Shown here one piece after another: positions 46,780 to 64,000 of a stretch of 64,000 bases of DNA; the stretch's first letter is position 1, and each line of letters starts with the position of its first letter. The translations under genes and the position numbers were made by a program. Below the pieces are notes generated by a model. That model did no database searches. It saw nothing but the letters and a program-made list of their open reading frames with translations, and had not been told where the DNA came from. The stretch covers positions 2,752,001 to 2,816,000 of the forward strand of contig OZ219791.1 in NCBI GenBank assembly GCA_964291215.2, written 5' to 3'. The stretch comes from Alphaproteobacteria bacterium. Lineage in GTDB: Bacteria > Pseudomonadota > Alphaproteobacteria > MPNO01 > UBA830.

Positions 46780-48028
46780 GGTACTGTAACTTGATGTCTG
46801 GAAATTTGTCTGAGGTTTGCGCTTTGAGGCGTTTCACTGGGGGGCTAGCCCCCCCAGTGAAACGCGGCGCCATCTTGCTATCCCATGGAGTTGGAAAAAT
46901 TCATGGAGGAAGCGAATGGACCTGCGACACACTACGACGATCGGGACTGTTTTGGAACATCTGATCGCAAACGGAGCAACGGATCTGGGGCGGATCTTTG
47001 GTCAGCTCTTCGAGCTTGCGATGCAAATCGAGCGCGAGCAGCACTTGAAAGCGGGCCACCGGACACCGGAACGACAGGGCTATGCCAACGGCTATAAGCC
47101 CAAACGGATCGACACCCCCACTGTTACCGTTCAGGTGCCAAACGGTCACGGGGACGATCCCCCCCAGTCGCTTGAACGCGGCCAGCGATCTTCTCGCGCC
47201 GTAGCCGAGATGTACATCAAGGGTGTTTCCACGCGGCAGGATGTAATGCGTGAGTTCGGGAGCCTGTCCTCTTCTCAGGTCAGCCGGGCCACCAGGTTGC
47301 TCGATGAAGAACTCGCCGCGCAACCGGCCCCTGATGAAATACCTGGATGCGCGCTATGAAAAAGCTCGCCATGACGGCGTTGTGCGCGATGTCGCAGTGC
47401 TCTCGGCCATCGGAATAGGGGCTGCAGGCACGTTCTGGGGCTCTCTGTGGCGCTCTCCGAGGCCGAGGTCCATTGGAGAGCCTTCCTGGAAAGCTTGCTA
47501 GCCCTGCATGGTACGACCTTTATCGTCTCGGATGACCATGCTGGGCTGAAAGCGGCACGACGCGCGGTGCTGGGCGCGGCGATGTGGCAGCGCTGCCAGT
47601 TCCACTTGGCGCAAAACGCCGTGCACCGAACAACGACATCAGGAAACGTATTGGAAAACAGCTCGGAGCCATGCGTCCTCACTCCAAACCGCCGAGGCTG
47701 AACCGGGCGCCCTCGTGGCCAGCTATCGCGACAAGCGTTCAGGCTTCCTGGCTGGAAAACAATGCGGGGCTCGCTGTCTTCACCTTGCCCGATGCTCACC
47801 ACAAGCGTATGCGAACCTCGAACGGCATCGAGCGACCGATCCAGCAAGAGCTCAAGCGGCGCACCTCCAAAGTCAGGGTCTTTCCGAACCTCGCCTCGTT
47901 GGAGCGCCTCTCAACCGCAGTCCTCATCGACGAAAAATGGGAAACCGAAACCAAGGCATACATCAAATGGGAACAGCTCGATGACTGAGAGCTTCACGAC
48001 AATTTCCAGACATCAGGTTGCGTAATCC
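46780..48028 (+). mobile_element. IS256-family element, transposase pseudogene
   Basis: Ends GGTACTGTAACTTGATGTCTGGAAATT / AATTTCCAGACATCAGGTTGCGTAATCC; EMYIKGVSTR, SDDHAGL, WQRCQFH, RTSNGIER, VRVFPN. Confidence 0.88.
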
Positions 48029-48237
48029 CCCAGATCCGTTGCTCCGTTTGCGATCAGATGTTCCAAAACAGTCCCGATCGTCGTAGTGTGTCGCAGGTCC
48101 ATTCGCTTCCTCCATGAATTTTTCCAACTCCATGGGATAGCACGATGGCGCCGCGTTTCACTGGGGGGCTAGCCCCCCAGTGAAACGCCTCAAAGCGCAA
48201 ACCTCAGACAAATTTCCAGACATCAAGTTACAGTACC
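48029..48237 (-). repeat. Inverted copy of the first about 210 bp of the IS256 element
   Basis: Near-perfect reverse complement of 46780-46988. Confidence 0.9.
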
Positions 48238-48241
48238 AACA

Positions 48242-48481
48242 GGGGATCCTCGTCACACAGCGCATGAAGCGCTCCGGCATGCGCTGGCGCATCGTCGGCG
48301 GACAATCACCTTCCGCGCTCTGCTCGAATCCGGCCGCTTCGAGAGCGCGTGGACGGCCATGATCGGTGCAGACGATGCACCAGCCAACGACAACATCAGC
48401 CCAAATCACACCCCGGCACTGGCCGCATGAGATGAACAAATGGTACTGAGTCTGCAACCGTGCCATACGAGAGTCTCACCC
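48242..48481 (+). mobile_element. ISKra4/ISLre2-like 3'-end remnant
   Basis: LVTQRMKRSGMRW; inverted match to 21972-22200. Confidence 0.55.
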
Positions 48482-48830
48482 ACCAAGACGCCACCACCAT
48501 CACCTTGGTGATGGACAACCTTGAACACCCCCCGGCGCTCTCTACGAGGCTTGCCCGCCGGACGAGGCCAGGGCCTTGTGGGACCGCTTCGAGTTCGTCT
48601 ACACCCCCCAAGCACGGCAGTTGGCTGAACGTGGTGGAACTCAACGTCATGATCTGGCAGTGCCTGAACCGTCGCATCGACTGCATCGAGGCGCTGCGCT
48701 GGGAAGTCGCCGCTTGGCAGGCCTCTCGCGACCGCATCCAGGCCAAGGTGGATTGGCAGTTCACCACCGACGATGCCCGCGTGAAACTCAAACCTCTCTA
48801 TACGACATTTTACGAATGACATCACGCTAG
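48482..48830 (+). mobile_element. 3' remnant of a different IS630 element
   Basis: LVMDNL, TPKHGSWLN, VDWQFTTDDARVKLKPLY; ends at CTAG. Confidence 0.8.
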
Positions 48831-48959
48831 GGGCCGTCGCGCTCACCACAGATGCAGGGTGGAAGGATGCCCGTGCCGGATGGATTTCTCCCGCGCCGAA
48901 GCCCTGTTGATCGCCTCCAGCGGCAGGGAGACCTCAACGGGCTTCCTGCGGCGCTTCAT
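48827..48959 (-). pseudogene. N-terminal stub of a DUF1156-type DNA methyltransferase
   Basis: Own translation [43 protein letters not shown] (TGA where W is expected), cut by IS630; ATGA overlap with the upstream ParA-like gene. Confidence 0.8.
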
Positions 48960-49957
48960 GCCGAAAGCCCGATTTTCATCCGGATCAAATCAGCCAGCTT
49001 CTTGAAATCGTGATAGGCCTCGGAAACGGCCGCTGCATGGTTTCCGATCGCGCCGTCGGCCGCGGTAAGGTGGAAAACGGGTTTCCGGGCCTCCTGCGCC
49101 ATGGGAACCAGACTTCGATAGTGCCGGACGGTTGCAAGACAGTTCTTGTCGTTGCTCGGCTTGTCCGGAAAAGACCCGGCGTCGCAGTTCAACAAATGCC
49201 GGCGGTAGGCTTCGGGTATGCGGTTTACCCACTTGTCATAGGCCTGCACCGGCCGGCCAAGGCGTACGCCATGCTGCTGGACGACATATCCCATCGGCTT
49301 CATGCTGCCGCAGGGCAATTCAAAACCGGGCCAGGCCCAATTGTCTCGGCGTTTCGACCATTCGCTCGTCCACCTTGTCAGCGTCGGACCCAGGTTCCTC
49401 AGGCCTTGGAGAGAAAAGAGGTCTGCCCCCAGCGGCGCGATGACGTGATCGGTTGCGACGAGCGCCGAGCGGTTCAGGGCGCCCAGATTGGGGCCGACAT
49501 CCACGAGGATGATCGTCGCGTCGATGGATGCGGCGCCGCTCTGCATGGTCTGCCAGAATGCGGTGAGGATGCGGAACGGGCGGTACAGATTGGATTCGCC
49601 AAGGGCGTTGGGCCATTCGCTGGAAAGGCTGTCCTCGAAACTGGAGAGCGCCAGGTCGCCGGAAATGAGTCCGAGGGTTTCGGTGATCCGTTTCACCTGC
49701 GGTTCCTGCAAGTCTCCCACCTCCATCAACGGCTGGATGCACTGGTAGATGGTCTGGCTCTTTGCGCCGTCCTCCCACAGCGACTCGAGCGCGCGCTCGT
49801 CGAGGAAAGTTGCAGTCAGATTGGCTTGCGGATCGAGGTCGCAGGCCAGTACGCGCTCGCCGATCTCCGACAGCATCCAGGCGAGGTGATAGACTAGGGA
49901 CGTTTTGCCGACGCCTCCCTTGTTGTTGAAAAAGGTCAGGACCGGCGCGGCCATCAT
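48956..49957 (-). CDS. ParA/AAA_31-family ATPase (orphan type)
   Basis: [29 protein letters not shown]; intact. Confidence 0.88.
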
Positions 49958-51177
49958 GCGGCCTCCCCAGCTTCGGGAACTGCCCGTACCGTGGCGAGCA
50001 GGTGCGTCGGCTCGACCGTGAAGTCGAGTTCCGGATGTCCGGCCTCGCGTAACAGGCGTTGCGCGGTCGGTATCCCGATCCCGAATCTCTGCACATAGCC
50101 TAACACCCGCATGGCCTCGGCCAGATTCGGATTGCGGTAGTCCGTCACTCCGGGGCGGGCGAAGTTCTCCTTAGTGACCGACCCGAAGGGTCCGCCGGGA
50201 TTCTGGATTTCGATCCTGTCGTCGAACCAAGTGACGCGGACGGGAGCGTTCGTCGTTTCGTAATCGCGGTGAATGAGCGCGTTCCGTGCGAGTTCCCGCA
50301 AGGCGGTCATGGGGTAGCTGTCCACACGGCGTTCGACATCGTGAGTGGCGATGTCGACCCGGCGAAGGTTGTGCGACCGAAGCTTGTCGTCAAGGCGCGA
50401 TAGCATTTCGGGGATTGTCCCGTCGATTCTTCTCTCGTCGATAACCGGGTCCGAAAGGTCATGCCCCCCGATGCGCAGGAACTGTATGTACCCACCCGGA
50501 ATATAGTCCAGCGGCCTCGTTCCGAGCACCAGCAAACCGAGAATCGTGGCCTGCCCGTCGTCGACGGAAGCAATCATCTTGGCCGCGGCCAAGCGTTCCT
50601 CCAGGCTGCGGTTGTTGGCCCGCAGGAGTTCCCGGTCGATCGCATTGGGCAGATACTCGTCCTCGAACTGGCGTCGATTGAGATCGGCGATGCCGGTGCC
50701 CGGCACCGGCGAAATATCGAAAGGCCGGTCTCCGTGGCGCCGCCTCTCGTTCAGTATACGCTCTTCTTGGGCCGTCGCCACAGCCCGGCGCGGACCGTTG
50801 CGAATGTGGATCGCGCCCCGGTAGCGCACCGGTGGCGAGTCGGACGGCAGGACGGTCACAACGGCGATATCGTGGCCTCGATACCGGCGCTTCTCGGATA
50901 GGATCGGCGGCGGCGGCACGATGTTCCCGTCGCTGCGCATGTCGGCCAGCGCGCGCAGCATCTCGTCGGTGATGGGGGTGCCGGTTGGGACACCGTCGTC
51001 CCCCAGCCCGACGACTGCGATGCCCGGGAGTCCTGAGCCGGGAAGATCGTTGGCGAAGGAGCAGATCGCTTCGCGAAGCCGCGTCGGCGCATTGCCTCCT
51101 AGCGTCTCCTTGAATTCGACCCGCGTGCTTTCCGCGCCCTCGATCAGGCGCGCCAATTCGTCGTCGTCCAGTCTCAT
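49954..51177 (-). CDS. Schlafen/AlbA_2 domain plus HATPase_c_4-type domain protein
   Basis: ESTRVEFKE, ICSFAND, VGLGDDG; ALRELARNALIHRDY, RIEIQNPGG, RNPNLAE, GIGI; intact. Confidence 0.85.
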   Translation of the reverse strand: MRLDDDELARLIEGAESTRVEFKETLGGNAPTRLREAICSFANDLPGSGLPGIAVVGLGDDGVPTGTPITDEMLRALADMRSDGNIVPPPPILSEKRRYRGHDIAVVTVLPSDSPPVRYRGAIHIRNGPRRAVATAQEERILNERRRHGDRPFDISPVPGTGIADLNRRQFEDEYLPNAIDRELLRANNRSLEERLAAAKMIASVDDGQATILGLLVLGTRPLDYIPGGYIQFLRIGGHDLSDPVIDERRIDGTIPEMLSRLDDKLRSHNLRRVDIATHDVERRVDSYPMTALRELARNALIHRDYETTNAPVRVTWFDDRIEIQNPGGPFGSVTKENFARPGVTDYRNPNLAEAMRVLGYVQRFGIGIPTAQRLLREAGHPELDFTVEPTHLLATVRAVPEAGEAA

Positions 51178-51540
51178 GGTCCCGCCTCCGCGGCTTTCCC
51201 GATCGCCGATACGGAGATCGTCCGCGAGACCTCCGCGAAGCCGGGCGGCGGTCCGAAAATCCGCGCCGGGTCGGGAACATAGAGCAGCCGGTGGACAAAG
51301 CCGTCTTCGACGAGCACGGCAGCGAGGATGAACGACCCTCCCGCGTTGAGCGCCGTCAGCATCTTGTTGCGCGTGACCGTGACGGCCTCTGCGTCCGCGC
51401 ACCGGCCCTTGATCTCGGTCAAGCGGAGGCCGCCGGTCTCAGGGTCGCGGCTTTCGATGTCACAACCTCGGTTCTCCGACGCAGCGTCGCGCGGCTCGTA
51501 TCCGAGGCTGCGTTCGCGTTTCATGATAGCCTCCATTGCC

Positions 51541-52734
51541 CTAGTAGTCTAACATTATTGTATTGATGGATATAGTGACTTCAGTTTCGTCCGGGCATCC
51601 TTCGTCGTGAAACGCCAGTCGACAGTGACATCGGCCGCATTGCGCCGTTCCACCCATGCTGCCGTCTCCCGCCGCATGGTGTCTCTGTCGGGAATGCGTC
51701 GCCGAAGGCACTGCCGCGACAGTGCACCGATCTCAATTTCGGCCATGTTGAGCCAGCTCCCGTGCTTCGGCGTGTAGCGAAACTCGAACCGCTTTCGCAC
51801 CCGCCTCCTCGGGCTCGAAGGCTTCATACAGCGACTGTGTGTGTTCAGATTGTCCAGCACGATCTTCCTGTCGGGGAAATGGTCGTCGGCAAGCTCCCGG
51901 ATGAAGTGCGCCCGGTTTCACAGCGGTCGGTGACTTTCACCGTGCGCCAGTTCTCGTTGGGCGCAAAGGCCAGGAAGAAGTTGGCCGTACCGTTGCGCTT
52001 ATATTCATGGTCGACCACCTCCGGCTGACCGGGGGTTTCCTTCGTCTGCTGCCGGCTGGTCTCGTACACCAGCACCTCACCCCCGGCAAAGTCCCGCTGA
52101 CAAATGTCAAGCACGTCCGCCGCCACGAACTGTGCGCTCCGGTGCGGTGGAATGCACCAGTACTGCTTCAGCCACGGCTTGAGCTCTTTTTTTAGCGTCT
52201 TCCTGACCGTCTCTTCCGAAATGCGCTCGACGATCTCCACCAGACGGCCGGCGAGCAGCGTCCACAGCCCTCGGGCGGGGACGAGCAGGGCGACCAGCTT
52301 CGCCTCCATCGCCCCGTTTCGGCCGACGGTTCACCTGCTCCTTGCGGCTGAGGGCAGCCTCCGGACCCTCCAGGACGCAGCGCAAGCGCTCGACCGTCGC
52401 CGTGCCCAGCGCAATGTCGGCATCGACAAGCGCCCCTCAGCATCAGGATTTGTGCCCGGCGCCCCCGGTGCCCGATCGCCTTCAGATCCCGGCGCTCCTG
52501 CGCTGAAAGGGTTACCCGGTAGAGCTTCCTGCCCCGAGAGTTGGCCATATGCGCCGCTCCTGTCATTGCGCCGAAGACCTGCGGGCATGCCCGTTGTCCG
52601 GACCTGCGCATGGGGCTGCGGCTGCCTGCCCGTTCGGCATCTTGCCCGTATCGACACTGTCCGGATTCCAACGGATGCCGACACAGGAATACTACCCACC
52701 AAAAACCATCAATACAATGCCGGTGGACTACTAG
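51541..52734 (-). mobile_element. IS630-family element, copy 3, inside the helicase gene
   Basis: Same ends and CTAG flanks; removing it restores ARAEIES-RAMEAIM. Confidence 0.9.
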
Positions 52735-52763
52735 ATTCGATTTCGGCGCGGGCTAGGGCGGAC

Positions 52764-53590
52764 GTGCAGCGAGTCTAGCTGCTGATCTTGCGGGTGAAAG
52801 TCCCGCAATTCTCAGTTTGGCGCCGTAGCATTGGTTCAGGGGCGACCCTGGACCAGCGAGCTGGGACGTAGGAAGCCGTCGTGGGCTGGCTGGAACTCAG
52901 TGTCCAGCCGGTTCGGTCAGCTAGGGCGGCGAGCAAACCGGAGGGCGAAAGCGAACGGGAAGCCCCGAAATTCCCCACCCACACGAAGCTGATTGTGGGA
53001 TAGACGGTGAACGCCAAGGTTGCTACCCGATGGCCAGTGTCGATGCGGAAGAACTGAGGAACACGCATCGGGTTCCCCGGGGTACAGACGGCGGCAATCC
53101 GGGACAGATCAGCAGTGAAAGACCGGAAGGTGAGGAGGACAGACAGGATGAAGCGACCCGTCAAGGACCGCGTCTATAACCGGGAAACGGGAAAGGACGC
53201 GGAGTCCACCTGACTGGCGGATGAGGTCGCCTAAGCGTTGACGGGCGGGACAACACAACCCGTCCCGAGCGAGGACCTCAGGGCTCAGGTGGCCTATGCG
53301 GCAGGTCAAGTCGGTACTCAGACCGACAGACTGCAAGGCCGAAGGACGGAGCAAACGCTCGGAGATGCCGTGGGTATGGCTGGGTCAGCCTTGACCATGG
53401 CGTGGGAAGGCTCCGCACCGAACTCCAAGTGGGTGCCTGATGCTTGAACCGGGAAAACCGGACGTACGGAATTTTAGGGGGGCTGCTGGAAACGTGGTCT
53501 ATGGCGATTCTGCGAACCCGCCCGCAATCGAAAGAGCGGTGACGGGTAAAGCCTTCGCCTAAGGATGCGCGCGCCAGTGGCCTACCCGAC
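52764..53590 (+). ncRNA. ORF-less group II intron-like RNA (827 nt), antisense to the helicase gene
   Basis: 5' GTGCAG, domain I hairpin GCGGGTGAAAGTCCCGC, partial DV CCGGGAAAACCGGACGTACGG, G-run, DVI ending CCTACCCGAC; removal restores host KEPP-SALARAEIE. Confidence 0.8.
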
Positions 53591-55519
53591 GGTGGTTCCT
53601 TCGTGCCGTCCGGGGGAGGGGGGCGTCGCCCGCCTCTTCCCGGCGGAGAAGTCTCGCGGGCACGACAAGGCCGCGCCGCAGACTTCCGGGGGCAGCGGCG
53701 CGAGGTCCCGCTGGCGCGCAATGTCGGCGAGCCGATGCTCTAGGCGATCTGCCAATGCCTCCGCTTGGCGCCTTACATTCTCCGAGTTCAGCCGGGGATG
53801 CTTGCTCGCCTTCTCTTCCGCCTCCAGATCCAGGGCGCGGTGCTGGAGATGAACGATCTCGCGGCGTATCCGCTCTCTGATCGCCGTTTCGATCCTGTCG
53901 AGTATGGCGAGGCACGGCTCTCCTGCCTCCTCCAGATGCCGGGGGGCTAGGTCGGTGACCGCAAGCGTACGTGCCCGCTCTTCCAGGGGTTCCCTGAGCC
54001 AGGGCGCGCCCAGGGTCTCGCCGATCCCGTCCTGCTCTTCCGCCGTCGGCGCGCGGCAGTCCAGATATGGTGCCGGCCCGCCGTTGTTGGCACTGCCGAC
54101 TTCGTGGAGCCAGACGAATTGCAGCCGTTTGGAGAGCGTCTGCGGCTTGCCGTCCCGTGCCGCCCGGCCATCGCGGATCGCATGGTGCAACGTGACCAGA
54201 ATGCGGGCGTCGTCATGCCGGTCGGTGTCGTCGACCAGCACACTCCGCGCGCCAGAAGCTCGCGATAGCGCTCAAGCGTCAGATCGATCAGGGCATCGAG
54301 CAGTGGATGGCCGGGCGCAACAAGTGCCGCCTGCGGCTGGCCAGGGATGTGTTTCCTGTCGAAACAGATGCGACGATAGCGGGGCAGCACCGGATCGGCG
54401 CGGCCGATCAGACGGTCCCGGTCGCGCAAGACGGGCGGAACCCGCGTGATCTCGGCCCGGCCCGTCTCGCGACGGCGCAGGATGCTGCCGGCTTCCTCAA
54501 AAGCTGCCTCGAAGAAGGGGCGGATGTGGTGGGGTTGGAGCCGCCGCGCCGCCGCCCGCTTCATCTCCTCCTGCACGCCGCGGACCGTGGCTGGGTCGAA
54601 CCCCTCCCGGGTCAGCTTGTTGTGTGCGACGAGATCGTTGATGTTGTCGACATCGACCGCGCCGTCGATCGTCTGGAACAGCCTGTCGGATATCTCCGGC
54701 CGCTCGCCGTAGCGGATGGCTTCCATGAACAGCTCGCGCAGCGGCCGGGCCTCGAACAGTTCGCCGAGCACATCGTAGATCCTGCCGCCCAGGGTTTGCC
54801 GTGTCGTCTCCAGCTTTTCCAGAAGCCGTTGGTACACCGCGCCCTCGCGCGTTTCGTTCGCCACCAGGTTCCACAGGTGGCAGACCTCGGTCTGCCCGAT
54901 CCGGTGAATGCGCGCGAAGTGCTGCTCCGGCCGGTTGGGATTCCACGGCAGGTCGTAGTTGACCATCAGGTGAGCGCCGCGTTGCAGGTTCACCCCCTCG
55001 TCGGCAGCGTCGTTGGCGAGAAGGAAGCGGACGGAGGGATCGTCGTTGAACGCGACGATGGCGGCGCGCCGCCGGTCGCGCGGGACGCTGCCGTGGATGA
55101 CGGTCACACTGTCGGGCGCGCCCGTGCGGTCGCGGATACGGTGGGCGAGATACTCCAACGTGTCGCGCGCCTCGGTGAAGACGACGATCTTGCGGCGCGC
55201 GCCCTGCCGGGGATCGTGGATTGGGGGGTCGTCGAAGATGCGGTCGAGTTCGTGCCATTTGTCATCCTCGCCAGACCGGCGGAGCGCGTTCGCCATGGCT
55301 TCGAGCCGCCGCAGCTCGGCGACCTCGGCTTCAAGTTCGGCGACCGTGCGGGCCGCCGTGGCGCGGTCGACGAGTCGGTCTTCGTGCGCCTCCAGCTCTT
55401 CGCCCGTGGCGTCTTCGAGAGCATCGTTGTCGAGCATAGCTTTCGGCACGGCCGCTTCTCCGACCTCGTGCCCGGCGCGGCCGAGCCGTTCTTCCTCCAG
55501 CCGCGCCTCGAATCGCAAC

Positions 55520-55720
55520 GTCGTGAGGATGGCGGACGGGAAGGCGCCCGACATCAGGGCGGTGGTCATCGATCTCGACGCCTCGTCGGATCGCATCTTG
55601 CCGCACGGCAATCGCTCCCGGGAACGAAGAAGGTCTGGCAGGGTCTCGAGCGGCTGCACCGGGCGATCCAGGTGCGCGACGCACTGGGCAAGAGAAGGCG
55701 GGAATGAGATACCTGTATGA
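55520..55720 (+). mobile_element. IS4-family transposase C-terminal remnant
   Basis: PDIRAVVIDL...LPGTKKVWQGLERL. Confidence 0.6.
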
Positions 55721-55724
55721 GTGT

Positions 55725-56124
55725 GGGATGTTGAAAGGCCTGTCGTGGCGGGACCGCGCAGGGAAAGGAGAAAGCCGAAGCCTGTGATGAACGGTTTGAA
55801 GAAGGGGCCCTGTGAAGGCGGCGAACAAGGGAGCTTCTGCGGAGTTGCTGGAGGAAAGGGCCTCGACCAAGGGGAATTCGGGACACAAAAGCACGCGCCG
55901 AACGCAGTGTCGGGTGCCACAGGCGGCGGACCGGATACGGAAAGCCGCAGAGGTTCGACTGGAAGCGACTGGAGCGCATGACCGAGATTCTTTGGCCGCG
56001 CGCAACAATCCGCCACCCATGGCCGGACCAGCGGTTTGCCGTCAAGCACCCGAGGGCGGATGGATTAACGTCCATGTCCGGATTTGTGCGGGGGGTGCGC
56101 AGTAATGCGCATTCCTACCGTAAC
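55725..56124 (+). ncRNA. Group II intron remnant with most of its RT ORF deleted
   Basis: RT start (QAADRIRKAA) joined to RT end (LWPRATIRHPWPDQRFAVKHPR); DV/DVI-like ATGTCCGGATTTGTGCGGGGGGTGCGCAGTAATGCGCATTCCTACCGTAAC. Confidence 0.75.
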
Positions 56125-56815
56125 TCGGTGACGACATGGAGCGATCGGGTCCTGCCGTCGACCCGGAAGCCGGTTTCGTCGACATGCAGGGCCGGGCGTT
56201 CCGGCAGCTCGGCGATGGCGGCCTGGAGTGCAGCGCGTCATGCAGGCGCCTGACGCAGGCGAGGCAGGTGGCCTCGTAGAGCCTGAGCCCGGAGACCGCC
56301 TGCACCAGCGCGACGGCGCAGGGACAGCATTTGGGCGACCGGCAGGTTGATGACGAAGGCCTGCAGACCGACGCCGTATTGCAGCGGCCCGGGCATGGTC
56401 TCGGGAAACCGCCCCCGGCAATCCGGGCATTCCTTGACCTCGGCGTCGATGCGGCGCTCGATGACCTCGAAGACGATGTCGTACGACGCTCCCGGTCGAC
56501 AGCCTCGACGCCATCGAGGCCGCAGGCCTCGACGGCGACCGTCTCCTCGACGATGGTCTTCCAGAGGTTGTCGCCCGTCTGCAGGTTCGGCTTCGGGCCC
56601 TTGCCGCTGGCGCCCTTGCGCCGCTCGTCCTTGTCCGTCTGCGACGGCGCAAGGCCGGAGTTGGCGCCGGTGGGTCGTCTTCTCCAGCAGGACGGCAATC
56701 AGGATGCTCACCAAGGTGGACAGCACGCGGATCACGTCATCGGCCTCTCCGGATATCTTGCCGGCAGCGCCGCGATCCTGGCCGCCTCGAACTCCTCGCG
56801 CAGCGACGCCGCGTC
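56125..56815 (-). mobile_element. IS66-family transposase remnant, cut by the intron
   Basis: SLREEFEAAR, NSGLAPSQTDK, KECPDCRG, PGPLQYG, LHVDETGFRVDG. Confidence 0.8.
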
Positions 56816-57273
56816 GCCCGGCGGCATCTTCCGGTACCCCGCCGCCTGGCCTTGCGCCTGATGCGCTGACGGTCCGTGCGGTTCCGTCCGACATCGCCGG
56901 CCGAGTGCATCCGCCCGGGCTCGAAGTCGAGCCACCTCGGTGCGGACCCGGGGCGTCACCTGCACGGCGATGCGGCGCCAGTCCCGCAGCAGGTCGTCGT
57001 ACAACGCCGAGGCGCGGCCCGAGACCATCGCCTGACACGGCAGCCCCTTGAGCAGTTCAAGGAGTTCGACATGGTTGGCTTCGGTGCAGTCGTGACGGTA
57101 CCGCCGCTTCGATCGGCGGGTCGCCTGCAGGGGTCGCTGCAGACCAGTTTCGTGCCCCGGAACGCAAGGCCGGCCAGGAACGCGTGGGCGCAGCCGTGGA
57201 TCAGTTCCACCGGATAATCGCACCCGAACCCGTCCAGCGATCGCCGGTCGATCCCGATCGAGCGCAAGGCCGG
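56815..57273 (-). pseudogene. Central/C-terminal part of the Dam/D12-class methyltransferase passenger
   Basis: PALRSIGID, ELIHGCAHAFL, LVCSDP (DPPY site broken by a frameshifting deletion near 57130), RRYRHD, MVSG..SALYDDLL. Confidence 0.65.
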
Positions 57274-58569
57274 GTGATGGCGACGGTCAACGCGGCGCGC
57301 GAGGAGTTCGAAGCGGCCAAGACCGCGGCGCTGCGTGCGGCCGGCAAGGTGGCGGAAGAGGCCGTCATCCGCGTCCTTGTCATCCTGCTCGACATCATCA
57401 TCGTCGTCCTTCTGGAGAAGACCACGCGCAAAACGAGCCGGAACTCCGGTCTGCCGCCGTCACAGACGGACAAGAGCGTGCCGGAAGCAACGGCAAGGGC
57501 CCGAAGCCGAACCGGCAGATGGGCGACAACCTGCGCAAGACCATCGTCGAGGAAACGGTTGCGGCCTGCGACGCCTGCGGCGCTGACATCGACGGCCCCG
57601 TCGATCGGGAGCGCCGCGTCCTCTATGACATCGTGTTCGAGGTCGTCGAGCGCCGCGCCGAGATCAAGGAATGCCCGAAGTGCAAGGGCCGGTTCCCCGA
57701 CAACATCCCGTGCAGTACGGCATCCAGGCCCTCGTCATCAACCTGCTGGTCGCCCAGATGCTATCCCTGCGCCGTCGCGTTCGTGCAGGCGATCTCCGGC
57801 ATCAAGCTCTCCGAGGCAACCTGCCTCGGCTATGCTTTCACGATGCGTCATGGGAGGAGGCCGCCGTGGCGCACCTCCTGCAACGCCCAGCCCTGCATGT
57901 CGACGAGACCGGATTTCGGATCAACAGTAAGTGGCTCCATGTCGTGGGACCCTGACGTGCAAGTTCCCGCACCGCAAGCGCGGGCAAGAGATCGGCCCGT
58001 GCTACAAGGGCGTCCTGGGCCTCGTACATGGGCCAGTGTAGCCACCAGCTGTGCGGTAGCCACCTGCTGCGCGAACTGACCTTTGTCGTCGAGGCTACCG
58101 CGCGACTGATGAAGAGCCTGCTCCGCGAGGTCTGCCACAAGGTCAACAAGAGCGCATCTAAAACCCTGAACGACGCCGGGCCGTGCGCAAGCGCTACCGC
58201 ACCATCAGGGCGCCAAGGAACTGCCCGACATTCCGCCGCCGCCGAAAGGAAAACGTGGACGCAAGTCCGACGCGCACAACCTGCACGAACGTCTCGTGAA
58301 ACACGAAAACCTGCGCTTCACAGACGACCCCAACGTCAGCTTCACCAACAATGCCGGAGAACAGAAGATCAGGATGGCAAAGGTCAAGGTGTCCGGGTGC
58401 TTCCGCTCCACGCAAAAGCATGGTGCCGGGGCTCAAGCTACCTCACCTCCATGGCCGCACTCGGCTACAACCCACTCGTCGCCACCCAGATCGCCCTCGA
58501 CGGAAAAGCCGCAGACATCATCAACGAGCACTATGGCCAATCAGAATCCAACTAGGGGTGAGTAGATAC
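57274..58569 (+). mobile_element. IS66-family element, degenerate; close relative of 19590-20802
   Basis: Collinear with 19590-20802; right end GGGGTGAGTAGATAC. Confidence 0.82.
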
Positions 58570-58688
58570 CTGGTTTGAATGTTCATCCTCAGCCAGTTCG
58601 CGCCGCAGTGCTGGCAAAGCGCAGCCGTCCAGGCGCCGTTCCGGCAGGGTGGCCGTCCAGCGGAAGTGAACGGGTTGCCGCCGGCCGG

Positions 58689-59144
58689 TCAGTTGCGGTT
58701 CTCGTACTGTTCCAGGCCCTCGATGGCGTCGAGATTCTCGGCGCGCCCGCGAAGTTCGATGACATTGCGGTCGGGGTCCCTGACGAAAACCGAGACATGG
58801 CTTCCGCGCTCAAACATTACCGGCCCCTGGGTGATCGTGATGCCGTGCTCCTTGAGCAGCCTGATGGTGTCGGCGATCGAGGATACCCGAAGCGCGAGAT
58901 GCGTCATGCCTGCGTACTTGGTGTCGATATCCATGAGGATGTTGCTGCCGTCATGTTCGGGCGCGGCATTGACGACCAGATTGATCTCGACGTTCTGGGC
59001 GTTGCGGATGATGATCACCGGATCGAAGGTAATCCGCTTCTCAACCTTGAAGCCCAACACCTCGTAGAAGCCCAGCGCACGCTCCGCGTCCGCGACCCGG
59101 ATACCGACATGGTCGACCTGCTCGATGCCGATCGTCTCCGTCAT
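58689..59144 (-). CDS. VOC/glyoxalase-family protein
   Basis: VDHVGIRV, FYEVLGF, THLALRV, FVRDPDRNVIEL. Confidence 0.88.
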   Translation of the reverse strand: MTETIGIEQVDHVGIRVADAERALGFYEVLGFKVEKRITFDPVIIIRNAQNVEINLVVNAAPEHDGSNILMDIDTKYAGMTHLALRVSSIADTIRLLKEHGITITQGPVMFERGSHVSVFVRDPDRNVIELRGRAENLDAIEGLEQYENRN

Positions 59145-60796
59145 GTGTTACTCCTGTCGACCGCCGGAGCGCCGGTTCCGGCGGGCTTCAGCGTTTCGCG
59201 CCCGCGCAGAATGTCCGACATGCGTTCGGCAAACATGATTATCGGCGCGTTGATGTTTCCCCCCACCATGTCGGGGAAGACCGAGCCGTCGATAACGCGA
59301 AGGTTCTCGGCGCCCCGCACACGCAGTTCGGGATCGACAACGGCCGCTTCGTCGCTGTCCGGGCCCATCTTGCAGGTGCCGAGCGGATGATGCGCGGTCC
59401 ACGCCGTGCGCTTGATGAAATCGTCGAGCGGTTCGTCCCGCGGCTGAATTTCGCGTCCGCGGAATTTATCGAGCGCTTCCTGGCGTGCGATCTCCCTCAC
59501 TATCCCGATGCCGTCGCGGAGCGTCTGCCAGTCCTCCGGTTCGGTCAGGAAGTTCTGGTGGATCTGCATGTGATCGGCGGGGTTGGCTGATCTCAGCGTC
59601 AGTTCGCCGACGCTCTTGGGGTGCAGCAGGACTGGCCGCACCATGAAGGCGTCGTTCGGCTTGGGCCGGAGGCCGGGGAACCAGGGTTTGGATTCGGGCG
59701 GAATGAAGCGCGCGAGCAACTGGATGTCGGGTTGCGCGAGTCCGTCTTTCGAATGGATGAAACCCGTGAGCGGGCCCGGCATCTCGGTGGCGAATCCGGT
59801 GCCGAAGAAGTACGCGCGAGCCATGGCAAGCGCAATCCGGTCGTAGCGAAGAAGCCCGACGAATGGACCGTCGCCGTTGCGCTCGTATTCGACGCCGACC
59901 GAGAGGTGGTCCTGGAGGTTGCAGCCCACGCCCTTCGAGTCGATCACCGTATCGATGCCATGCGCCTTCACGCGGTTGCCGTCGCCGATCCCCGACAGCA
60001 TCAGCAGCTGCGGCGAGTTTATGACCCCGCCCGAAAGGATGACCTCGCGCTCCGCCCGCGCCACCGTCGTCCCGCGGCCTCCGGTGGAATACTCGATGCC
60101 CGTCGCCCTCGCGCCCTCGAGAATGACCCGGTGCGCCAGCGCCCGCGTCACCACGGTCAGGTTGGCGCGCTTCATCGCCGGGCGCAGATAGGCGACCGCG
60201 GCGCTGCACCGGCGGCCGTTGCGGATGGTCGACTGGAACGTGCCGAGGCCTTCGTTGGTCGCGCCGTTATAGTCGGACGTGGTTCCGTATCCGGCCGACT
60301 CGCCGGCCGCGAGCCACGCCGCCAGCAGAGGATCAGGATACTTGTTCTCTATCGTCGTCAGCGGGCCTCCGGAGCCGCGATAGTCGTCTTCACCACCTTC
60401 CCAGTCCTCCGATTTCCGGAAATACGGCAGGCACTCGTCATAGGACCAGCCCGTGCAGCCGTTCCGGCTCCAGCGGTCATAGTCCTCGCGGTGGCCGCGC
60501 ACATAGCCCATGGCGTTGATCGATGAAGAGCCGCCGAGCACCTTGCCGCGTGCGCACTCGACCTCGCGCCCGTCGAACTGGGCTTCGGGCTCCGTGAAAT
60601 AGCCCCAGTCGAACAGCCGCTCGAACAGAATCTTGCCCCAGCCGAGAGGGATCGTGATGTAGGGATGGCGGTCGCTGCCGCCGGCCTCGATGACCAGCAC
60701 CCGGGTATCCGGATCCTCGGTCAGGCGGTTGGCAAGCGTGCAGCCGGCCGAGCCGGCGCCGACGATCACGTAGTCATAGCTGTTGCCGTTGCTCAT
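59141..60796 (-). CDS. GMC-family oxidoreductase (choline dehydrogenase-like)
   Basis: YDYVIVGAGSAG, RGKVLGGSSSINAM, NLQDH, HHPLGTCKMG, GNINAP. Confidence 0.92.
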   Translation of the reverse strand: MSNGNSYDYVIVGAGSAGCTLANRLTEDPDTRVLVIEAGGSDRHPYITIPLGWGKILFERLFDWGYFTEPEAQFDGREVECARGKVLGGSSSINAMGYVRGHREDYDRWSRNGCTGWSYDECLPYFRKSEDWEGGEDDYRGSGGPLTTIENKYPDPLLAAWLAAGESAGYGTTSDYNGATNEGLGTFQSTIRNGRRCSAAVAYLRPAMKRANLTVVTRALAHRVILEGARATGIEYSTGGRGTTVARAEREVILSGGVINSPQLLMLSGIGDGNRVKAHGIDTVIDSKGVGCNLQDHLSVGVEYERNGDGPFVGLLRYDRIALAMARAYFFGTGFATEMPGPLTGFIHSKDGLAQPDIQLLARFIPPESKPWFPGLRPKPNDAFMVRPVLLHPKSVGELTLRSANPADHMQIHQNFLTEPEDWQTLRDGIGIVREIARQEALDKFRGREIQPRDEPLDDFIKRTAWTAHHPLGTCKMGPDSDEAAVVDPELRVRGAENLRVIDGSVFPDMVGGNINAPIIMFAERMSDILRGRETLKPAGTGAPAVDRSNT

Positions 60797-60975
60797 CGCG
60801 CTCCTTCTTTCCGTGCGCCCAGGCGCCGCCATTCTGGCCGGTGCTGAGGTTGCCGTCCAGCACCGGGCCCAGGACACGGCCGCATCGCGGGCCGGCGCGT
60901 GAACCGGGATCCGGGCTCGGCCGCGAAGCCGGCTGGAAGCGGCGGCGGGCGCGGATACGGCCCGAGGGGCCGACC

Positions 60976-62316
60976 TCAGCGGCGCTGCCCCGTATCCTTG
61001 AGGCCGCGGAGCGCCTTTTCGGCAGCCTTGGTGTCGGCGATGCCGGCCTTGCGGTCGACCGGGACTGTCTCCTTCTGGCCGGCCTTCGGAAGCTTCTCGA
61101 ACGGGTAGACGGCGATCTTGTCGTTTCCTGCCGACGTGTCGCGGTCGAGGACGAGGTCCCTGGCGTTGGTCTTGCCGCTTCGCATTGCGCGGCCGTGCTT
61201 CTTCGCCGTCTCCAGGTCGAGCCACCACTTGCCGGCCACGTTGCGCCGGCCGAAGCCCATCTTGTCGTCGAGCCAGATCAGGAACCGACGTGACCAGGGG
61301 AGGCGGATCGCGGCCCACATCGCAAGCCGGTGCTGCAGCAGCCCTTCCTTGTTCCAGGGGCACATCTTCATGCACCTGCCGCAGGAGGAACCCTTGAGGT
61401 TCGTGACCCGGTACTTGGTGCATTTCTCGACATCGGGCTTCCAAGTCTCGTAGCCGTTGTAGAGCACTTTCTCCCCGTAGGGGATGGCCTGGGCAGGGCA
61501 TTCGCGGGCGCACTTCATGCACTTGGCGCAGAAGTCCTGCAGCCCGAAGTCTATCGGCTTGTCGACCGTCATCGGAAGGTTGGTCGTGATTATCGCCGTC
61601 TTGTGGCGCGGCCCGACGAACGGGTTGAGCACGAGTTCGCCGATGCGGCTCATTTCGCCGAGCCCGGCCAGCAGCATCAGCGGAATCTGCAGCACATCGC
61701 CGTCGGCGTTGGAATGCGCCTGCGCCTCGTAGCCCAGCCGGCGGATGTAGTCGGCAACGACGACCGAGATCGTCGAGCCCTTGAGATAGGCGCGGTAGCT
61801 CTGGGCACCCGAGATCCAGTCGTCGCCCGAAGACGCCTCAAGGGTCTCCCAGCGCTGGTCGACGACCACGACGATGGCGTATTTGTGCTTCGCCTCTATG
61901 GGCTCACCGTCCATGTCGTGGCTGTACCAGGCCCATTCCGGGCACTCGCAAATGCCGACGATGTCGGCATCGAGGAAGTGGCAGAGCGCCTTGATGTGCT
62001 TCGCCATCCCCTCGGGATCGGAGGGAAGTTCGGCCGGTTCCGCATAGGGATCGCCCCGGTGGGTGGGGACCTGGGTCCAGTGCACATGGCCCATCGCAGC
62101 GTTGAGCGGATTCTTGGTGATAAAGCGGCGTATCTCCTTGCCGGCCGTCGGTCCGAGGTCGCCGAAAAAGGCGCGCACGAAGAATCCGGCCCGTTTCGGA
62201 ACCCGTTCTATGCTGTCGGTGATCAGCGTCGTCGGCCGGTCGACCCGGGGGATCTTCTCCATCGGGAAGCGGCCCATGTAGAGTGGCCGTCCGCGCCGTG
62301 AGAGTATGCCCAGCAT
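60976..62316 (-). CDS. rdhA: Cobalamin/2x[4Fe-4S] reductive dehalogenase, catabolic (cytoplasmic) type
   Basis: ADIVGIC, SYRAY, IRRLGYEAQAH, AGLGEMSRIG, PFVGPRHK, DKPIDFG, CAKCMKCARECP, C..SCGRCMKMCPW; no evident TAT leader. Confidence 0.85.
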   Translation of the reverse strand: MLGILSRRGRPLYMGRFPMEKIPRVDRPTTLITDSIERVPKRAGFFVRAFFGDLGPTAGKEIRRFITKNPLNAAMGHVHWTQVPTHRGDPYAEPAELPSDPEGMAKHIKALCHFLDADIVGICECPEWAWYSHDMDGEPIEAKHKYAIVVVVDQRWETLEASSGDDWISGAQSYRAYLKGSTISVVVADYIRRLGYEAQAHSNADGDVLQIPLMLLAGLGEMSRIGELVLNPFVGPRHKTAIITTNLPMTVDKPIDFGLQDFCAKCMKCARECPAQAIPYGEKVLYNGYETWKPDVEKCTKYRVTNLKGSSCGRCMKMCPWNKEGLLQHRLAMWAAIRLPWSRRFLIWLDDKMGFGRRNVAGKWWLDLETAKKHGRAMRSGKTNARDLVLDRDTSAGNDKIAVYPFEKLPKAGQKETVPVDRKAGIADTKAAEKALRGLKDTGQRR

Positions 62317-62338
62317 TCCTGACCTCCCGGGCGCCGCT

Positions 62339-63148
62339 TCAGGGCAGGCGCACGACGGGATCGTCGCTTCGTGCGCGCCGATCGAGGAAGCGCGCGAGCG
62401 CTTCCCTGAAATAGGGATGGCCGACCGACTCCATCACGTTCTGGATCTCGAATTCCGTGGCTTCCTCGATCGACCGGCGCCAGCCCATGTGGAAACTCTC
62501 CCTGGCCATGGCCTGAAGATGGGTGGGTCCGGCCGCAAGATCTCTGGCGACCGACCAGGCATCGGCCTCGAACCGGTCGCGGCCGTAGATCCGGTTGACG
62601 ATCTGCCACTCAAGCGCTTCGCGAGCGTCAAGGGCGCGGTTGGTCAGCATCAGTTCCATGGCGCGACGGAAGCCGACGATCTTGACCAGCGAATAGCTCG
62701 TCGTGGCATCGTTGGCGAGGCCTATCGAATGCCAAGCACAGAGGAAGCGGGCATCGTCGGTGCACACCACGATGTCCGAACAGAGCGCTATGCCGAGCCC
62801 GGAGCCGGCCGCGACGCCGTTGACGGCAGAGAATACCGGTTTTCGCAACCGCACGATAAGGTGGAACACTTGGTGCCACCACATCGCCAGTTCCCGGAAG
62901 TGGGGGCTGATTCCCTCGTCAGTCGCCGGGATTTCCTTGAGGTTGAAACCCGAACAGAAGGCATCTCCAGCACCTGTGAACATCACGGCTCCGACCGTGT
63001 CGTCGGCCTCGGCCCGAAAAAGTGCGTCATGGGTTTCACGGACGCCCGCAAGATCGAGCGCGTTGGCGTATTGCGGCAGGTTGAACACCACCCTGGCAAC
63101 GCCGTCAGTCACCTCGTAGCGGATGCTGTTGTAAGTTGCAGTGTTCAA
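62339..63148 (-). CDS. fcbB: 4-chlorobenzoyl-CoA dehalogenase homolog (crotonase fold)
   Basis: End-to-end similarity, from memory, to the Pseudomonas CBS-3 enzyme: WWHQ (His90), CAWH (Trp137), GLAND (Asp145), TSYSL, RRAMELMLTNR, PTHLQ, TEFEIQNV. Confidence 0.9.
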   Translation of the reverse strand: MNTATYNSIRYEVTDGVARVVFNLPQYANALDLAGVRETHDALFRAEADDTVGAVMFTGAGDAFCSGFNLKEIPATDEGISPHFRELAMWWHQVFHLIVRLRKPVFSAVNGVAAGSGLGIALCSDIVVCTDDARFLCAWHSIGLANDATTSYSLVKIVGFRRAMELMLTNRALDAREALEWQIVNRIYGRDRFEADAWSVARDLAAGPTHLQAMARESFHMGWRRSIEEATEFEIQNVMESVGHPYFREALARFLDRRARSDDPVVRLP

Positions 63149-63538
63149 GATGGGCCCCGTCTGCGGTTTCGATCATTGAGCGACGCAGGATATGGCGCAG
63201 TACCGCGTCCGTCCAGAGAGGAGATTTGGCGGCTCGCTGCTCAATCCTGCCACGAGGAGCCGTTCTCAGAAGTTCAGGAACACGGAATGATCCGCCGACG
63301 GACTTCCGGGCCGCTTCCTTCCAGGCGTCCGCAGCGCCGCCGGGTTTCCGCCGCACAGGCCGGGAGTCTGGCCGGTCCGGTCGACTCGTCGGGCCGGAGT
63401 CAGCGCGTCGGAAGCACGGGGGCTACGAGCGTCCGTCCGTCCCCCGGCTCCCCTTCTCGCCGGACAGCTGGAACGCGATGTCCGGCGGAACCCTTTCGTG
63501 GACAAGCGCCTTGCCGGCAGGCCGCGCCCCGCTGGCGG

Positions 63539-64000
63539 TCATTCAGCTGCTTCGCGGTGTCCGATCGCCGCATTGACCGCCGGCATGACCTTCTCGGCCA
63601 TCAGCTCCATCGACCGCCTGCCGAGCGCCTTGTCCTCCCAGTCCTTGCCGGCGTAAAGAAGCGTCCCGAATTCCCCGGTTACCTCACGGAACGCCAGCAG
63701 CTGGTCGATCACCGAGTTCACGTCGCCGGCGATGACGAGGCTGTCGACCACGAAGTCCAGCGTCAGCCGGTCGTCGGGGAACTCCCGCTCGGGCTTGAAC
63801 ACCTCATGGCGGTTGGCCTTCTTCAGCTTGGTGAACAGCTGCCTGTAGTAGAACCGGTAAGGGCTGCGTTCGCTGTCCCGCCCGTACTCCAGCGCTGTCG
63901 CATGATCGTCATGGACGAAGATCGAGCGGGCGATCCGCCAGTCGGCGGGATCGGCCGTGCGCCCGGCCTCGGAACAGCCCTGTGCGTAGTTGGTCCAGTG
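63539..64000 (-). CDS. LLM-class (luciferase-like) flavin-dependent oxidoreductase, 3' part only
   Basis: Frame open to the window edge; WRIARSIFV, GEFGTLLYAG, SMELMAEKVMP. Confidence 0.75.
   Translation of the reverse strand, partial: HWTNYAQGCSEAGRTADPADWRIARSIFVHDDHATALEYGRDSERSPYRFYYRQLFTKLKKANRHEVFKPEREFPDDRLTLDFVVDSLVIAGDVNSVIDQLLAFREVTGEFGTLLYAGKDWEDKALGRRSMELMAEKVMPAVNAAIGHREAAE

What the first reader, a model, noticed from the sequence alone, without database searches (positions are those of the whole stretch)
58689..64000. Dual-mechanism dehalogenation cluster: hydrolytic FcbB-type next to reductive RdhA-type dehalogenase
Seen: five co-oriented genes, LLM oxidoreductase > fcbB homolog > rdhA > GMC oxidoreductase > VOC protein. 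fcbB and rdhA are 22 bp apart, and GMC and VOC overlap by 4 bp. The FcbB homolog keeps the His, Trp and Asp catalytic positions. RdhA keeps both Fe-S motifs. Known: FcbB converts 4-halobenzoyl-CoA to 4-hydroxybenzoyl-CoA, and catabolic RdhAs (NpRdhA/BhbA type) remove halogens ortho to a phenolic OH, as in 3,5-dibromo-4-hydroxybenzoate. Inference: the two could act in sequence on polyhalogenated aromatics. FcbB would create the para-OH, RdhA would strip the flanking halogens, and GMC/LLM would feed in halobenzyl alcohols or aldehydes. I do not know of a described operon coupling both chemistries.
Basis: partly seen in the sequence, partly recalled or inferred. Interest (0 to 1): 0.8.

Follow-up and report, generated by a model that had tools for sequence, protein, structure and literature searches.

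The report
Paired hydrolytic and reductive dehalogenase genes
Two genes predicted to strip halogens from aromatic acids by different chemistries sit 22 bases apart; they come and go as a pair in one bacterial family, and the same two enzyme types were joined separately in another lineage, so they likely work as one undescribed module that funnels halogenated benzoates to 4-hydroxybenzoate.

Summary
Observation confirmed. A 4-chlorobenzoyl-CoA-dehalogenase (FcbB) homologue with every catalytic residue lies 22 bp upstream of a B12/Fe-S reductive dehalogenase. That enzyme matches NpRdhA's active domain (TM 0.93; QueG 0.33) and keeps its halophenol-binding residues, but lacks NpRdhA's vestigial domain. 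The unit is two genes, not five. Of 25 other genomes in the family, 11 have fcbB and 10 of these have the Rdh, adjacent in 9. Relatives lacking both keep LLM, GMC and VOC around an empty site. Burkholderiales carry a second pairing (marR-fcbB-fcbA-two-domain rdhA), and an AU test rejects one origin for the two Rdh groups (p=0.0008). Best reading: a halobenzoate funnel to 4-hydroxybenzoate or its CoA ester. The strict relay (FcbB makes the OH that Rdh needs) is plausible but untested. The GMC/LLM feed-in idea is not supported. Against obligate coupling: most fcbB loci lack an Rdh, rdh was deleted alone twice, and no ligase, thioesterase or electron donor is in the cluster. Nine paper searches showed no such operon; reductive-plus-hydrolytic 2,4-dichlorobenzoate metabolism is described physiologically. 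This scan already noted the pairing on another genome (e1-6790783). Verdict: new variant of known kinds.

The parts
62339..63148 (-). fcbB-type gene: 4-halobenzoyl-CoA dehalogenase homologue, 269 aa, crotonase fold (core of the module)
   Evidence: E 5.7e-103 to 1NZY; catalytic residues kept; dN/dS 0.08 and 0.12
60976..62316 (-). single-domain, signal-less B12/2x[4Fe-4S] reductive dehalogenase of the NpRdhA lineage, 446 aa (core of the module)
   Evidence: TIGR02486 over cut-off; aligns to NpRdhA residues 252-685, E 3e-159; model pLDDT 91.9, TM 0.93 to NpRdhA; S422/Y426/K488/R552 kept
62317..62338 (-). 22-bp spacer between the fcbB stop and the rdhA start, with a GGGAGG Shine-Dalgarno-like motif at 62328-62323
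   Evidence: read directly from the sequence; spacers of about 6-20 bp in 8 of 9 related loci, 128 bp in the ninth
63539..64000 (-). 3' part of an LLM-class flavin monooxygenase gene (368 aa in full); flanking backbone, not part of the variable unit
   Evidence: PF00296; nearest solved structure 3,6-diketocamphane monooxygenase, E 1.7e-24; orthologue at 80% or more in 21 of 25 family genomes, 10 of them without fcbB or the Rdh
59141..60796 (-). GMC oxidoreductase gene (551 aa); flanking backbone
   Evidence: PF00732/PF05199; kept near LLM in 9 of 10 relatives lacking both dehalogenases
58689..59144 (-). VOC/glyoxalase-family gene (151 aa), overlapping the GMC gene by 4 bp; flanking backbone
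   Evidence: PF00903; kept in 8 of 10 relatives lacking both dehalogenases

Best explanation
fcbB and rdhA form a two-gene unit that likely acts as a halobenzoate funnel: FcbB is predicted to swap the para halogen of a 4-halobenzoyl-CoA for a hydroxyl, and the B12/Fe-S enzyme is predicted to remove halogens next to a para hydroxyl, whether FcbB made that hydroxyl or the compound arrived with it, so that both would end at 4-hydroxybenzoate or its CoA ester. Shown: the gene pair, its conservation, its joint absence, the residue sets, and genes elsewhere in the genome for a ligase, thioesterases, PobA, HcrA, BoxB and cobalamin synthesis. Inferred: the substrates, the order of steps, co-transcription, whether the Rdh takes the free acid or the CoA ester, and the electron donor (none is encoded nearby, so it would be a shared cellular ferredoxin). 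The downstream routes would be Hcr then Box for the CoA ester, or PobA for the free acid.
For: (1) Both proteins keep the full catalytic sets of characterised enzymes (residue roles from passages of PMC7565698, and PMC6922536). (2) Family f1: fcbB is in 11 of 25 other genomes and the 80%-or-more Rdh orthologue in 10 of 25, all 10 within those 11. They are adjacent in 9; in G001 they lie on two contigs, with the fcbB match stopping at residue 237 and rdhA starting 130 bp from its contig end. (3) Empty sites: in 6 relatives marR is followed directly by the AEC transporter gene, exactly where fcbB-rdhA sits in others; in G004, LLM abuts GMC. (4) Second pairing: marR-fcbB-fcbA-two-domain rdhA in 4 Burkholderiales genome loci and 7 metagenome loci, some of them the same sequence. 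There it is the only Rdh match at E 1e-20 in 4 of 4 genomes. Among 81 genomes around G462, the close Rdh orthologue occurs in 3, each about 1.5 kb from fcbB. (5) One clade for all 29 fcbB-linked Rdh rows is rejected against 16 others, p-AU 0.00076. (6) In the sister family, fcbB sits next to hcr genes in 5 of 6 loci fetched; HcrA was over the NCBIfam cut-off in 2 of 2 tested. This fits 4-hydroxybenzoyl-CoA as the product. (7) The window's genome has an FcbA-like ligase (E 7e-117 to 3CW8), five 4HBT-type thioesterase matches, PobA, HcrA, BoxB, CobN and CobQ over cut-off.
Against: No activity or expression data. Most informative fcbB loci have no Rdh nearby: 39 of 53 genome loci and 14 of 31 metagenome loci. 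In sister family f2, 11 of 14 genomes have both genes and 0 of 11 have them adjacent. rdh was deleted while fcbB stayed in L049 and L117. Joint absence of neighbours can come from a single deletion, and kin are not independent: the evidence amounts to two pairing events. Catabolic genes cluster anyway, which raises the chance baseline. No fcbA, fcbC, ferredoxin or reductase lies in the window's cluster. The genome's FcbA-like ligase also occurs in relatives without fcbB. It differs from the 4-chlorobenzoate ligase at pocket positions 184, 185, 208, 209, 280 and 311, so the natural substrate may not be 4-chlorobenzoate.
Confidence: 0.6

Rival explanations
1. Strict relay: the pair is selected because FcbB turns 3,4-di- or 3,4,5-trihalobenzoyl-CoA into the 3(5)-halo-4-hydroxy compound that only the Rdh can finish.
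For: FcbB's predicted product is exactly the substrate class of NpRdhA-type enzymes (PMC10463259 passage: all characterised catabolic RdhAs act on ortho-halogenated phenols). The Burkholderiales operon holds ligase, FcbB and Rdh together, and its Rdh has Gly in place of Phe290, which could open the pocket for a larger para group (inference). JtRdhA accepts bulky para groups such as TBBPA. Recalled, not seen: a 4-chlorobenzoate degrader converts 3,4-dichlorobenzoate to 3-chloro-4-hydroxybenzoate and then removes the second chlorine (Adriaens and Focht 1991; not held).
Against: Each gene persists without the other. The ligases keep Ile303 in 52 of 52 aligned rows; from recall, this residue hinders meta-substituted benzoates in the Alcaligenes ligase (paper not held). 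The V208A and A280G changes might offset it. The window's Rdh keeps Phe290.
Confidence: 0.3
2. The FcbB homologue's natural substrate carries a non-halogen leaving group, or is otherwise not a halobenzoate. The pair then serves some natural substituted benzoate, and only the Rdh is a dehalogenase in vivo.
For: FcbB homologues with invariant A86, W89, H90, G114, W137 and D145 (145 of 145 rows) occur in many uncultured marine and soil lineages. Most of their neighbouring ligases have Trp rather than Phe at 184 and Cys rather than Asn at 311.
Against: About 58% identity to the proven CBS3 enzyme (my count from the alignment) with an unchanged active site. Pairing twice with a dehalogenase points to halogenated substrates.
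Confidence: 0.12
3. Neighbourhood without a shared pathway: both genes landed in a catabolic region once in an ancestor of this family and are inherited or deleted together only because they are adjacent.
For: The region between LLM and GMC varies a great deal among relatives. The sister family keeps both genes apart. rdh was lost alone twice.
Against: A separate, overlapping fcbB-fcbA-rdhA operon with a different Rdh clade, in genomes where it is the sole Rdh. Short spacers are kept down to 72% FcbB identity.
Confidence: 0.12
4. Reverse order, as in 2,4-dichlorobenzoate degraders: the Rdh first removes the 2-halogen of 2,4-dihalobenzoyl-CoA, then FcbB hydrolyses the 4-halogen.
For: This two-step route is described physiologically (PMC3809935 passage, citing van den Tweel 1987). 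From recall, its reductase gene was not identified.
Against: Both Rdh groups keep S422/K488/R552, which bind a phenolic hydroxyl ortho to the leaving halogen. A 2,4-dihalobenzoyl-CoA has no such hydroxyl.
Confidence: 0.05

Closest known systems
4-Chlorobenzoyl-CoA dehalogenase FcbB of Pseudomonas sp. CBS3 (PDB 1NZY, 1JXZ) and the fcbABC operon
   Same: Crotonase fold, same length, E 5.7e-103, all catalytic residues.
   Different: No fcbA or fcbC in the cluster (known operons hold all three; PMC516016 passages). The next gene is a reductive dehalogenase. Thr146 is Ala.
NpRdhA, catabolic reductive dehalogenase of Nitratireductor pacificus (PDB 4RAS, 6ZXU); BhbA and JtRdhA
   Same: Matches the active domain (residues 252-685; TM 0.93, 50% identity). 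F290, F291, F310, S422, Y426, N452, K488, R552 and eight Fe-S cysteines are kept. No Tat motif or membrane helix.
   Different: Lacks the vestigial N-terminal domain and the PDOR reductase domain, and has no ferredoxin or reductase neighbours. Pocket changes are A419G, M423Y and P311I, typical of a wide single-domain subfamily (84 of the 120 homologues listed are 470 aa or shorter).
2,4-Dichlorobenzoate pathway of Alcaligenes denitrificans NTB-1 (reductive, then hydrolytic dechlorination)
   Same: One organism combines a reductive and a hydrolytic dehalogenation on the way to 4-hydroxybenzoate (PMC3809935 passage and reference list).
   Different: The order is opposite to the one predicted here, it is described at the level of physiology, and I saw no gene cluster for it. 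The primary paper was not held.
TAT-less cytosolic RDases such as Ros_A3X954 of Roseobacter sp.
   Same: Cytosolic, no Tat signal, two Fe-S motifs; debrominates 2,6-dibromophenol (PMC13101508 passages).
   Different: Not compared by sequence here; no link to fcb genes in the passages seen.

Membership tests
4-chlorobenzoyl-CoA dehalogenase (FcbB) | Crotonase fold with clear best match to 1NZY | tested here: met
   PF00378; E 5.7e-103 against 1.7e-31 for the next crotonase
4-chlorobenzoyl-CoA dehalogenase (FcbB) | Asp145 nucleophile, His90, Trp137, Trp89, Phe64/Gly114, Glu232 | tested here: met
   Asp145 and His90 roles from PMC6922536 passages and reference titles, the others recalled
4-chlorobenzoyl-CoA dehalogenase (FcbB) | Halide release from 4-halobenzoyl-CoA | not testable with these tools
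   needs an assay
fcbABC operon | Ligase and thioesterase genes clustered with fcbB | tested here: not met
   none in the cluster or the stretch beyond 64000; a ligase and thioesterases lie elsewhere
Reductive dehalogenase family (TIGR02486) | Score over the curated cut-off; two four-cysteine Fe-S motifs | tested here: met
   190.5 against 160.35 bits; motifs at residues 263-274 and 299-320
Cytosolic (TAT-less) RDases, broad definition | No Tat signal, no membrane helix, no rdhB anchor gene | tested here: met
   no Tat motif; highest 19-residue hydropathy 1.19; neighbours are fcbB and GMC; definition from PMC13101508 and PMC12219181 passages
Catabolic RdhA as defined by Fisher et al. 2023 (NpRdhA/BhbA) | Ortho-halophenol site S422/K488/R552 and proton donor Y426 | tested here: met
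Catabolic RdhA as defined by Fisher et al. 2023 (NpRdhA/BhbA) | [quoted passage not shown] | tested here: not met
   446 aa, matching only NpRdhA 252-685, with fcbB directly upstream; definition in PMC10463259. It works like NpRdhA but is not filed under this strict definition.
Catabolic RdhA as defined by Fisher et al. 2023 (NpRdhA/BhbA) | Fused PDOR reductase, or (in some) clustered ferredoxin and reductase genes | tested here: not met
   none among the annotated neighbours of the window or of related loci
Catabolic RdhA as defined by Fisher et al. 2023 (NpRdhA/BhbA) | Cobalamin binding and reductive dehalogenation of ortho-halophenols | not testable with these tools
   the genome encodes CobN and CobQ; activity needs an assay
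QueG epoxyqueuosine reductase | TIGR00276 over cut-off; QueG as closest fold | tested here: not met
   28.6 against 200 bits; TM 0.32-0.36 against 0.93 for NpRdhA
Respiratory RdhAB | Tat signal and rdhB membrane anchor | tested here: not met
   PceA-type matches are far weaker (E 1e-28)

The most novel reading that the evidence does not exclude
An undescribed, twice-evolved hydrolytic-then-reductive relay for natural polyhalogenated benzoates. FcbB installs the para hydroxyl on a 3,4-di- or 3,4,5-trihalobenzoyl-CoA. A B12 dehalogenase then strips the flanking halogens, possibly on the CoA ester, and hands 4-hydroxybenzoyl-CoA to the Hcr/Box route with no oxygen-dependent dehalogenation. This would give FcbB enzymes a natural, non-pollutant role in sponge-associated and soil bacteria.
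Probability: 0.3. Interest if true: 0.72.

Novelty: new variant of a known kind. Interest (0 to 1): 0.52.

Why it matters
FcbB is known almost only from pollutant (PCB and 4-chlorobenzoate) degraders, and cytosolic B12 dehalogenases from bromophenol and bromoxynil work. A conserved, twice-assembled pairing gives a concrete, two-protein test of what FcbB does in natural halogen cycling and of whether a reductive dehalogenase can act on a CoA thioester. It also supplies a single-domain NpRdhA-lineage enzyme to characterise. If the relay works, it is a compact cassette for fully dehalogenating 3,4- and 3,4,5-halobenzoates. Both chemistries are known, so the novelty is the combination.

Tried and rejected
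Five-gene module: rejected, because LLM, GMC and VOC stay in relatives without the dehalogenases. QueG: rejected. My first guesses that the 144-aa gene between LLM and fcbB in relatives is a thioesterase, and that the 312-aa gene after rdhA is a reductase, were wrong: they are MarR and an AEC-type transporter. No remnant of either was found in the window's spacers. Promoter/terminator scan: 0 promoter-like sites and 1 terminator-like site inside fcbB, below the shuffle means, so uninformative. No RNA holder was listed among 23 runs. No fcbB match among 72,556 plasmid records at E 1e-60, or in 400 other genomes drawn from the phylum, where at most 6 candidates per genome were scored. A single-sequence fold failed (pLDDT 33); the alignment-based fold worked. 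The homodimer prediction for the single-domain Rdh was not available, so its oligomeric state is open. The FcbB tree (FastTree) keeps the two Rdh-linked groups apart but leaves the deep branching open. Paper searches showed no operon coupling the two enzymes; most subscription papers are outside the library. The older primary papers could not be read. No supplements were consulted.


Full report
1. Observation. fcbB and rdhA are 22 bp apart, with a ribosome-site-like motif in the gap, and GMC and VOC overlap by 4 bp. The gaps LLM-fcbB (390 bp) and rdhA-GMC (179 bp) are wide. The window lies at G000:C2:2752001-2816000 of a 6.15-Mb, two-contig genome, 99% complete; the closest named relatives are uncultured Alphaproteobacteria. 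Of 4 runs laid, a contig of X3 spans all five genes, and contigs of X4 and X9 (sponge metagenomes of two other studies, about 94-95% identical) bridge the fcbB-rdhA junction. dN/dS is 0.08-0.13 in 9 of 9 comparisons.

2. The enzymes. P0001 matches the CBS3 dehalogenase 1NZY at E 5.7e-103, far above any other crotonase (1.7e-31); identity is about 58% by my count. It keeps F64, A86, W89, H90, G114, W137, D145 and E232. P0002 passes the reductive-dehalogenase model (190.5 against 160.35 bits) and fails QueG (28.6 against 200). It aligns to NpRdhA residues 252-685, and its model (pLDDT 91.9) superposes on NpRdhA at TM 0.93, on PceA at about 0.55 and on QueG at about 0.33. It keeps the residues that PMC7565698 (passages) names for binding the phenolic hydroxyl (S422, K488, R552) and donating the proton (Y426), with pocket changes A419G, M423Y and P311I. 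It has no Tat motif or membrane helix. It lacks the vestigial domain that PMC10463259 (passages) treats as the mark of catabolic RdhAs. It belongs to a broad single-domain subfamily: 84 of the 120 homologues listed are 470 aa or shorter. TAT-less cytosolic RDases are known (PMC13101508, PMC12219181; passages).

3. What the unit is. Among 25 other genomes of the family, fcbB is found in 11 and the 80%-or-more Rdh orthologue in 10, all within those 11. The two are adjacent in 9 and on separate contigs in G001. and 38/39 partly see the same genomes, so their counts are not additive. In most relatives the order is LLM-marR-fcbB-rdhA-AEC transporter, with GMC-VOC 2-10 kb further on; the window's genome lacks marR and the transporter there. 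The LLM orthologue is in 21 of 25 family genomes. I fetched the 10 that lack both dehalogenases: GMC was nearby in 9 and VOC in 8, six had marR directly followed by the transporter, and G004 had LLM 54 bp from GMC. So LLM, GMC and VOC are backbone, and fcbB-rdhA is the part that comes and goes. A related marR (about 41-50%) also precedes fcbB in two other fcbB clades, so the empty sites are probably losses (inference).

4. A second pairing. Of the 80 genome loci kept, 17 were not FcbB-like, 9 had the single-domain Rdh adjacent, 1 a remnant, 4 the order fcbB-fcbA-two-domain rdhA, 39 no Rdh with 2.5 kb or more of sequence downstream, and 10 were too short to tell. Of the 80 metagenome loci, the counts were 10 adjacent, 7 of the second type, 14 without and 49 too short. 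The second type occurs in Burkholderiales/Betaproteobacteria MAGs. Its middle gene matches 4-chlorobenzoate CoA ligase at E 1e-118, and the ligase and Rdh genes overlap in most loci. In 4 of 4 such genomes this is the only Rdh match at E 1e-20. Among 81 genomes around G462, fcbB was found in 4 and an Rdh in 10; the close orthologue was in 3, each beside fcbB, while G484 has distant copies of both on different contigs. On a tree of 45 Rdh rows, the window's group is sister to unlinked single-domain orthologues of the same order, not to the Burkholderiales enzymes (which warns of a long-branch join elsewhere). Holding the 29 fcbB-linked rows together is rejected (p-AU 0.00076); the group was defined by gene neighbourhood but named after I had seen the tree.

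5. Against tight coupling. Most informative fcbB loci have no Rdh. In the sister family, 11 of 14 genomes have both genes and none has them adjacent; there fcbB lies beside hcr genes in 5 of 6 loci fetched. rdh was deleted with fcbB kept in L049 and L117. No ligase, thioesterase or electron-transfer gene lies in the window's cluster or the stretch beyond it. The genome's best FcbA-like ligase is also in relatives without fcbB. It has Trp184 and Cys311 like most environmental fcbB-linked ligases, and 52 of 52 aligned ligases keep Ile303. From recall (paper not held), Ile303 hinders meta-substituted benzoates.

6. How it most likely works. I commit to a funnel (0.6). A halobenzoate is activated by a ligase encoded elsewhere, and FcbB replaces a para halogen by a hydroxyl through the Asp145 aryl-enzyme route (established for CBS3; PMC6922536 and PMC6100074 passages). 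The Rdh removes halogens ortho to that hydroxyl, or to one already present, at a cobalamin centre fed through two Fe-S clusters. The product would leave through HcrCAB and Box as the CoA ester, or through a thioesterase and PobA as the acid; HcrA, BoxB, PobA, five thioesterase matches, CobN and CobQ are in the genome. Every catalytic step is inferred from homology. Rivals: the strict relay as the reason for the pairing (0.3; it overlaps with the funnel), a non-halogen substrate for FcbB (0.12), adjacency without a shared pathway (0.12), and the reverse order (0.05).

7. What is known. fcbABC operons are described without an Rdh (PMC516016 passages), and bhbA lies in a bromoxynil cluster (PMC10463259 passage). 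A reductive-then-hydrolytic route for 2,4-dichlorobenzoate is described physiologically (PMC3809935 passage). Nine searches listed no paper on a cluster joining fcbB and an rdhA; PMC12660952 (passages) does not mention chlorobenzoyl. The library lacks most subscription papers, the older primary papers were not held, and no supplements were read. Earlier notes of this scan report the same pairing on another genome (e1-6790783), the fcbB-hcr operon (e1-6778758) and the short Rdh form (e1-1245382, e1-949048). I had reached the pairing and the second operon before looking, and these notes are not independent support.

8. Verdict. The feature is real and conserved, a new combination of two known enzyme kinds with a directly testable prediction: new variant of a known kind, interest 0.52.

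Noticed in passing
G052:C83:78-2689; L102:6671-9303; L103:6430-9065; L104:7146-9778 (8 genomes of family f4): Tandem pairs of single-domain NpRdhA-lineage genes, 55-59% identical to P0002. In the three pairs examined, both copies keep S422/Y426/K488/R552 and eight cysteines, but the second has an altered pocket (N452A, F310R). They could be an unfused forerunner of NpRdhA's internal duplication, or a heterodimer. A TRAP transporter lies on one side, and cupin and FAA-hydrolase genes on the other.
   Followed up: partly
L096-L100 (sister family f2): fcbB in one cluster with 4-hydroxybenzoyl-CoA reductase genes; HcrA over the NCBIfam cut-off in 2 of 2 tested.
   Followed up: partly
L021, L028, L030, L032, L127, L137, L144, L145, L147, L151: The Burkholderiales-type operon marR-fcbB-fcbA-rdhA, followed in L021 by a periplasmic binding protein, is the more complete and easier system to test; its Rdh has Gly at NpRdhA position 290 in 10 of 10 rows.
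   Followed up: yes
window 44492-58600: The hydantoinase B/A-like genes that flank VOC in G001 and G004 are broken here: B is in three pieces and A stops after about 184 of 679 residues. An IS-rich block of about 12 kb separates them from VOC; window 57001-58600 gives 192 matches over 300 bp in the genome.
   Followed up: partly
L083:9497-11695 and L084:10146-11144 (G000:C2): Two further Rdh-family genes in the window's genome: a two-domain NpRdhA-like protein (732 aa) that keeps the catalytic residues, and a distant 332-aa protein.
   Followed up: partly
L023:10001-12271: FcbB fused to an AMP-binding (CoA-ligase-like) domain in an Acidobacteriota MAG, 756 aa.
   Followed up: no
L042:7327-10804; L044; L177: The order fcbA, VanA-like Rieske O-demethylase (annotated in L042), fcbB; it may point to methoxylated halobenzoates as substrates.
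   Followed up: no
L151:6427-6873: A VOC homologue 57% identical to P0003 lies about 1.3 kb downstream of the Burkholderiales-type Rdh in one locus only; not seen in the other loci of that type.
   Followed up: no
G000:C2, about 2835050-2836558 and 2847824-2849647: Two UbiD-like decarboxylase ORFs and hydantoinase-like genes 19-34 kb beyond the window end, recognised by eye from the translations and not scanned.
   Followed up: no
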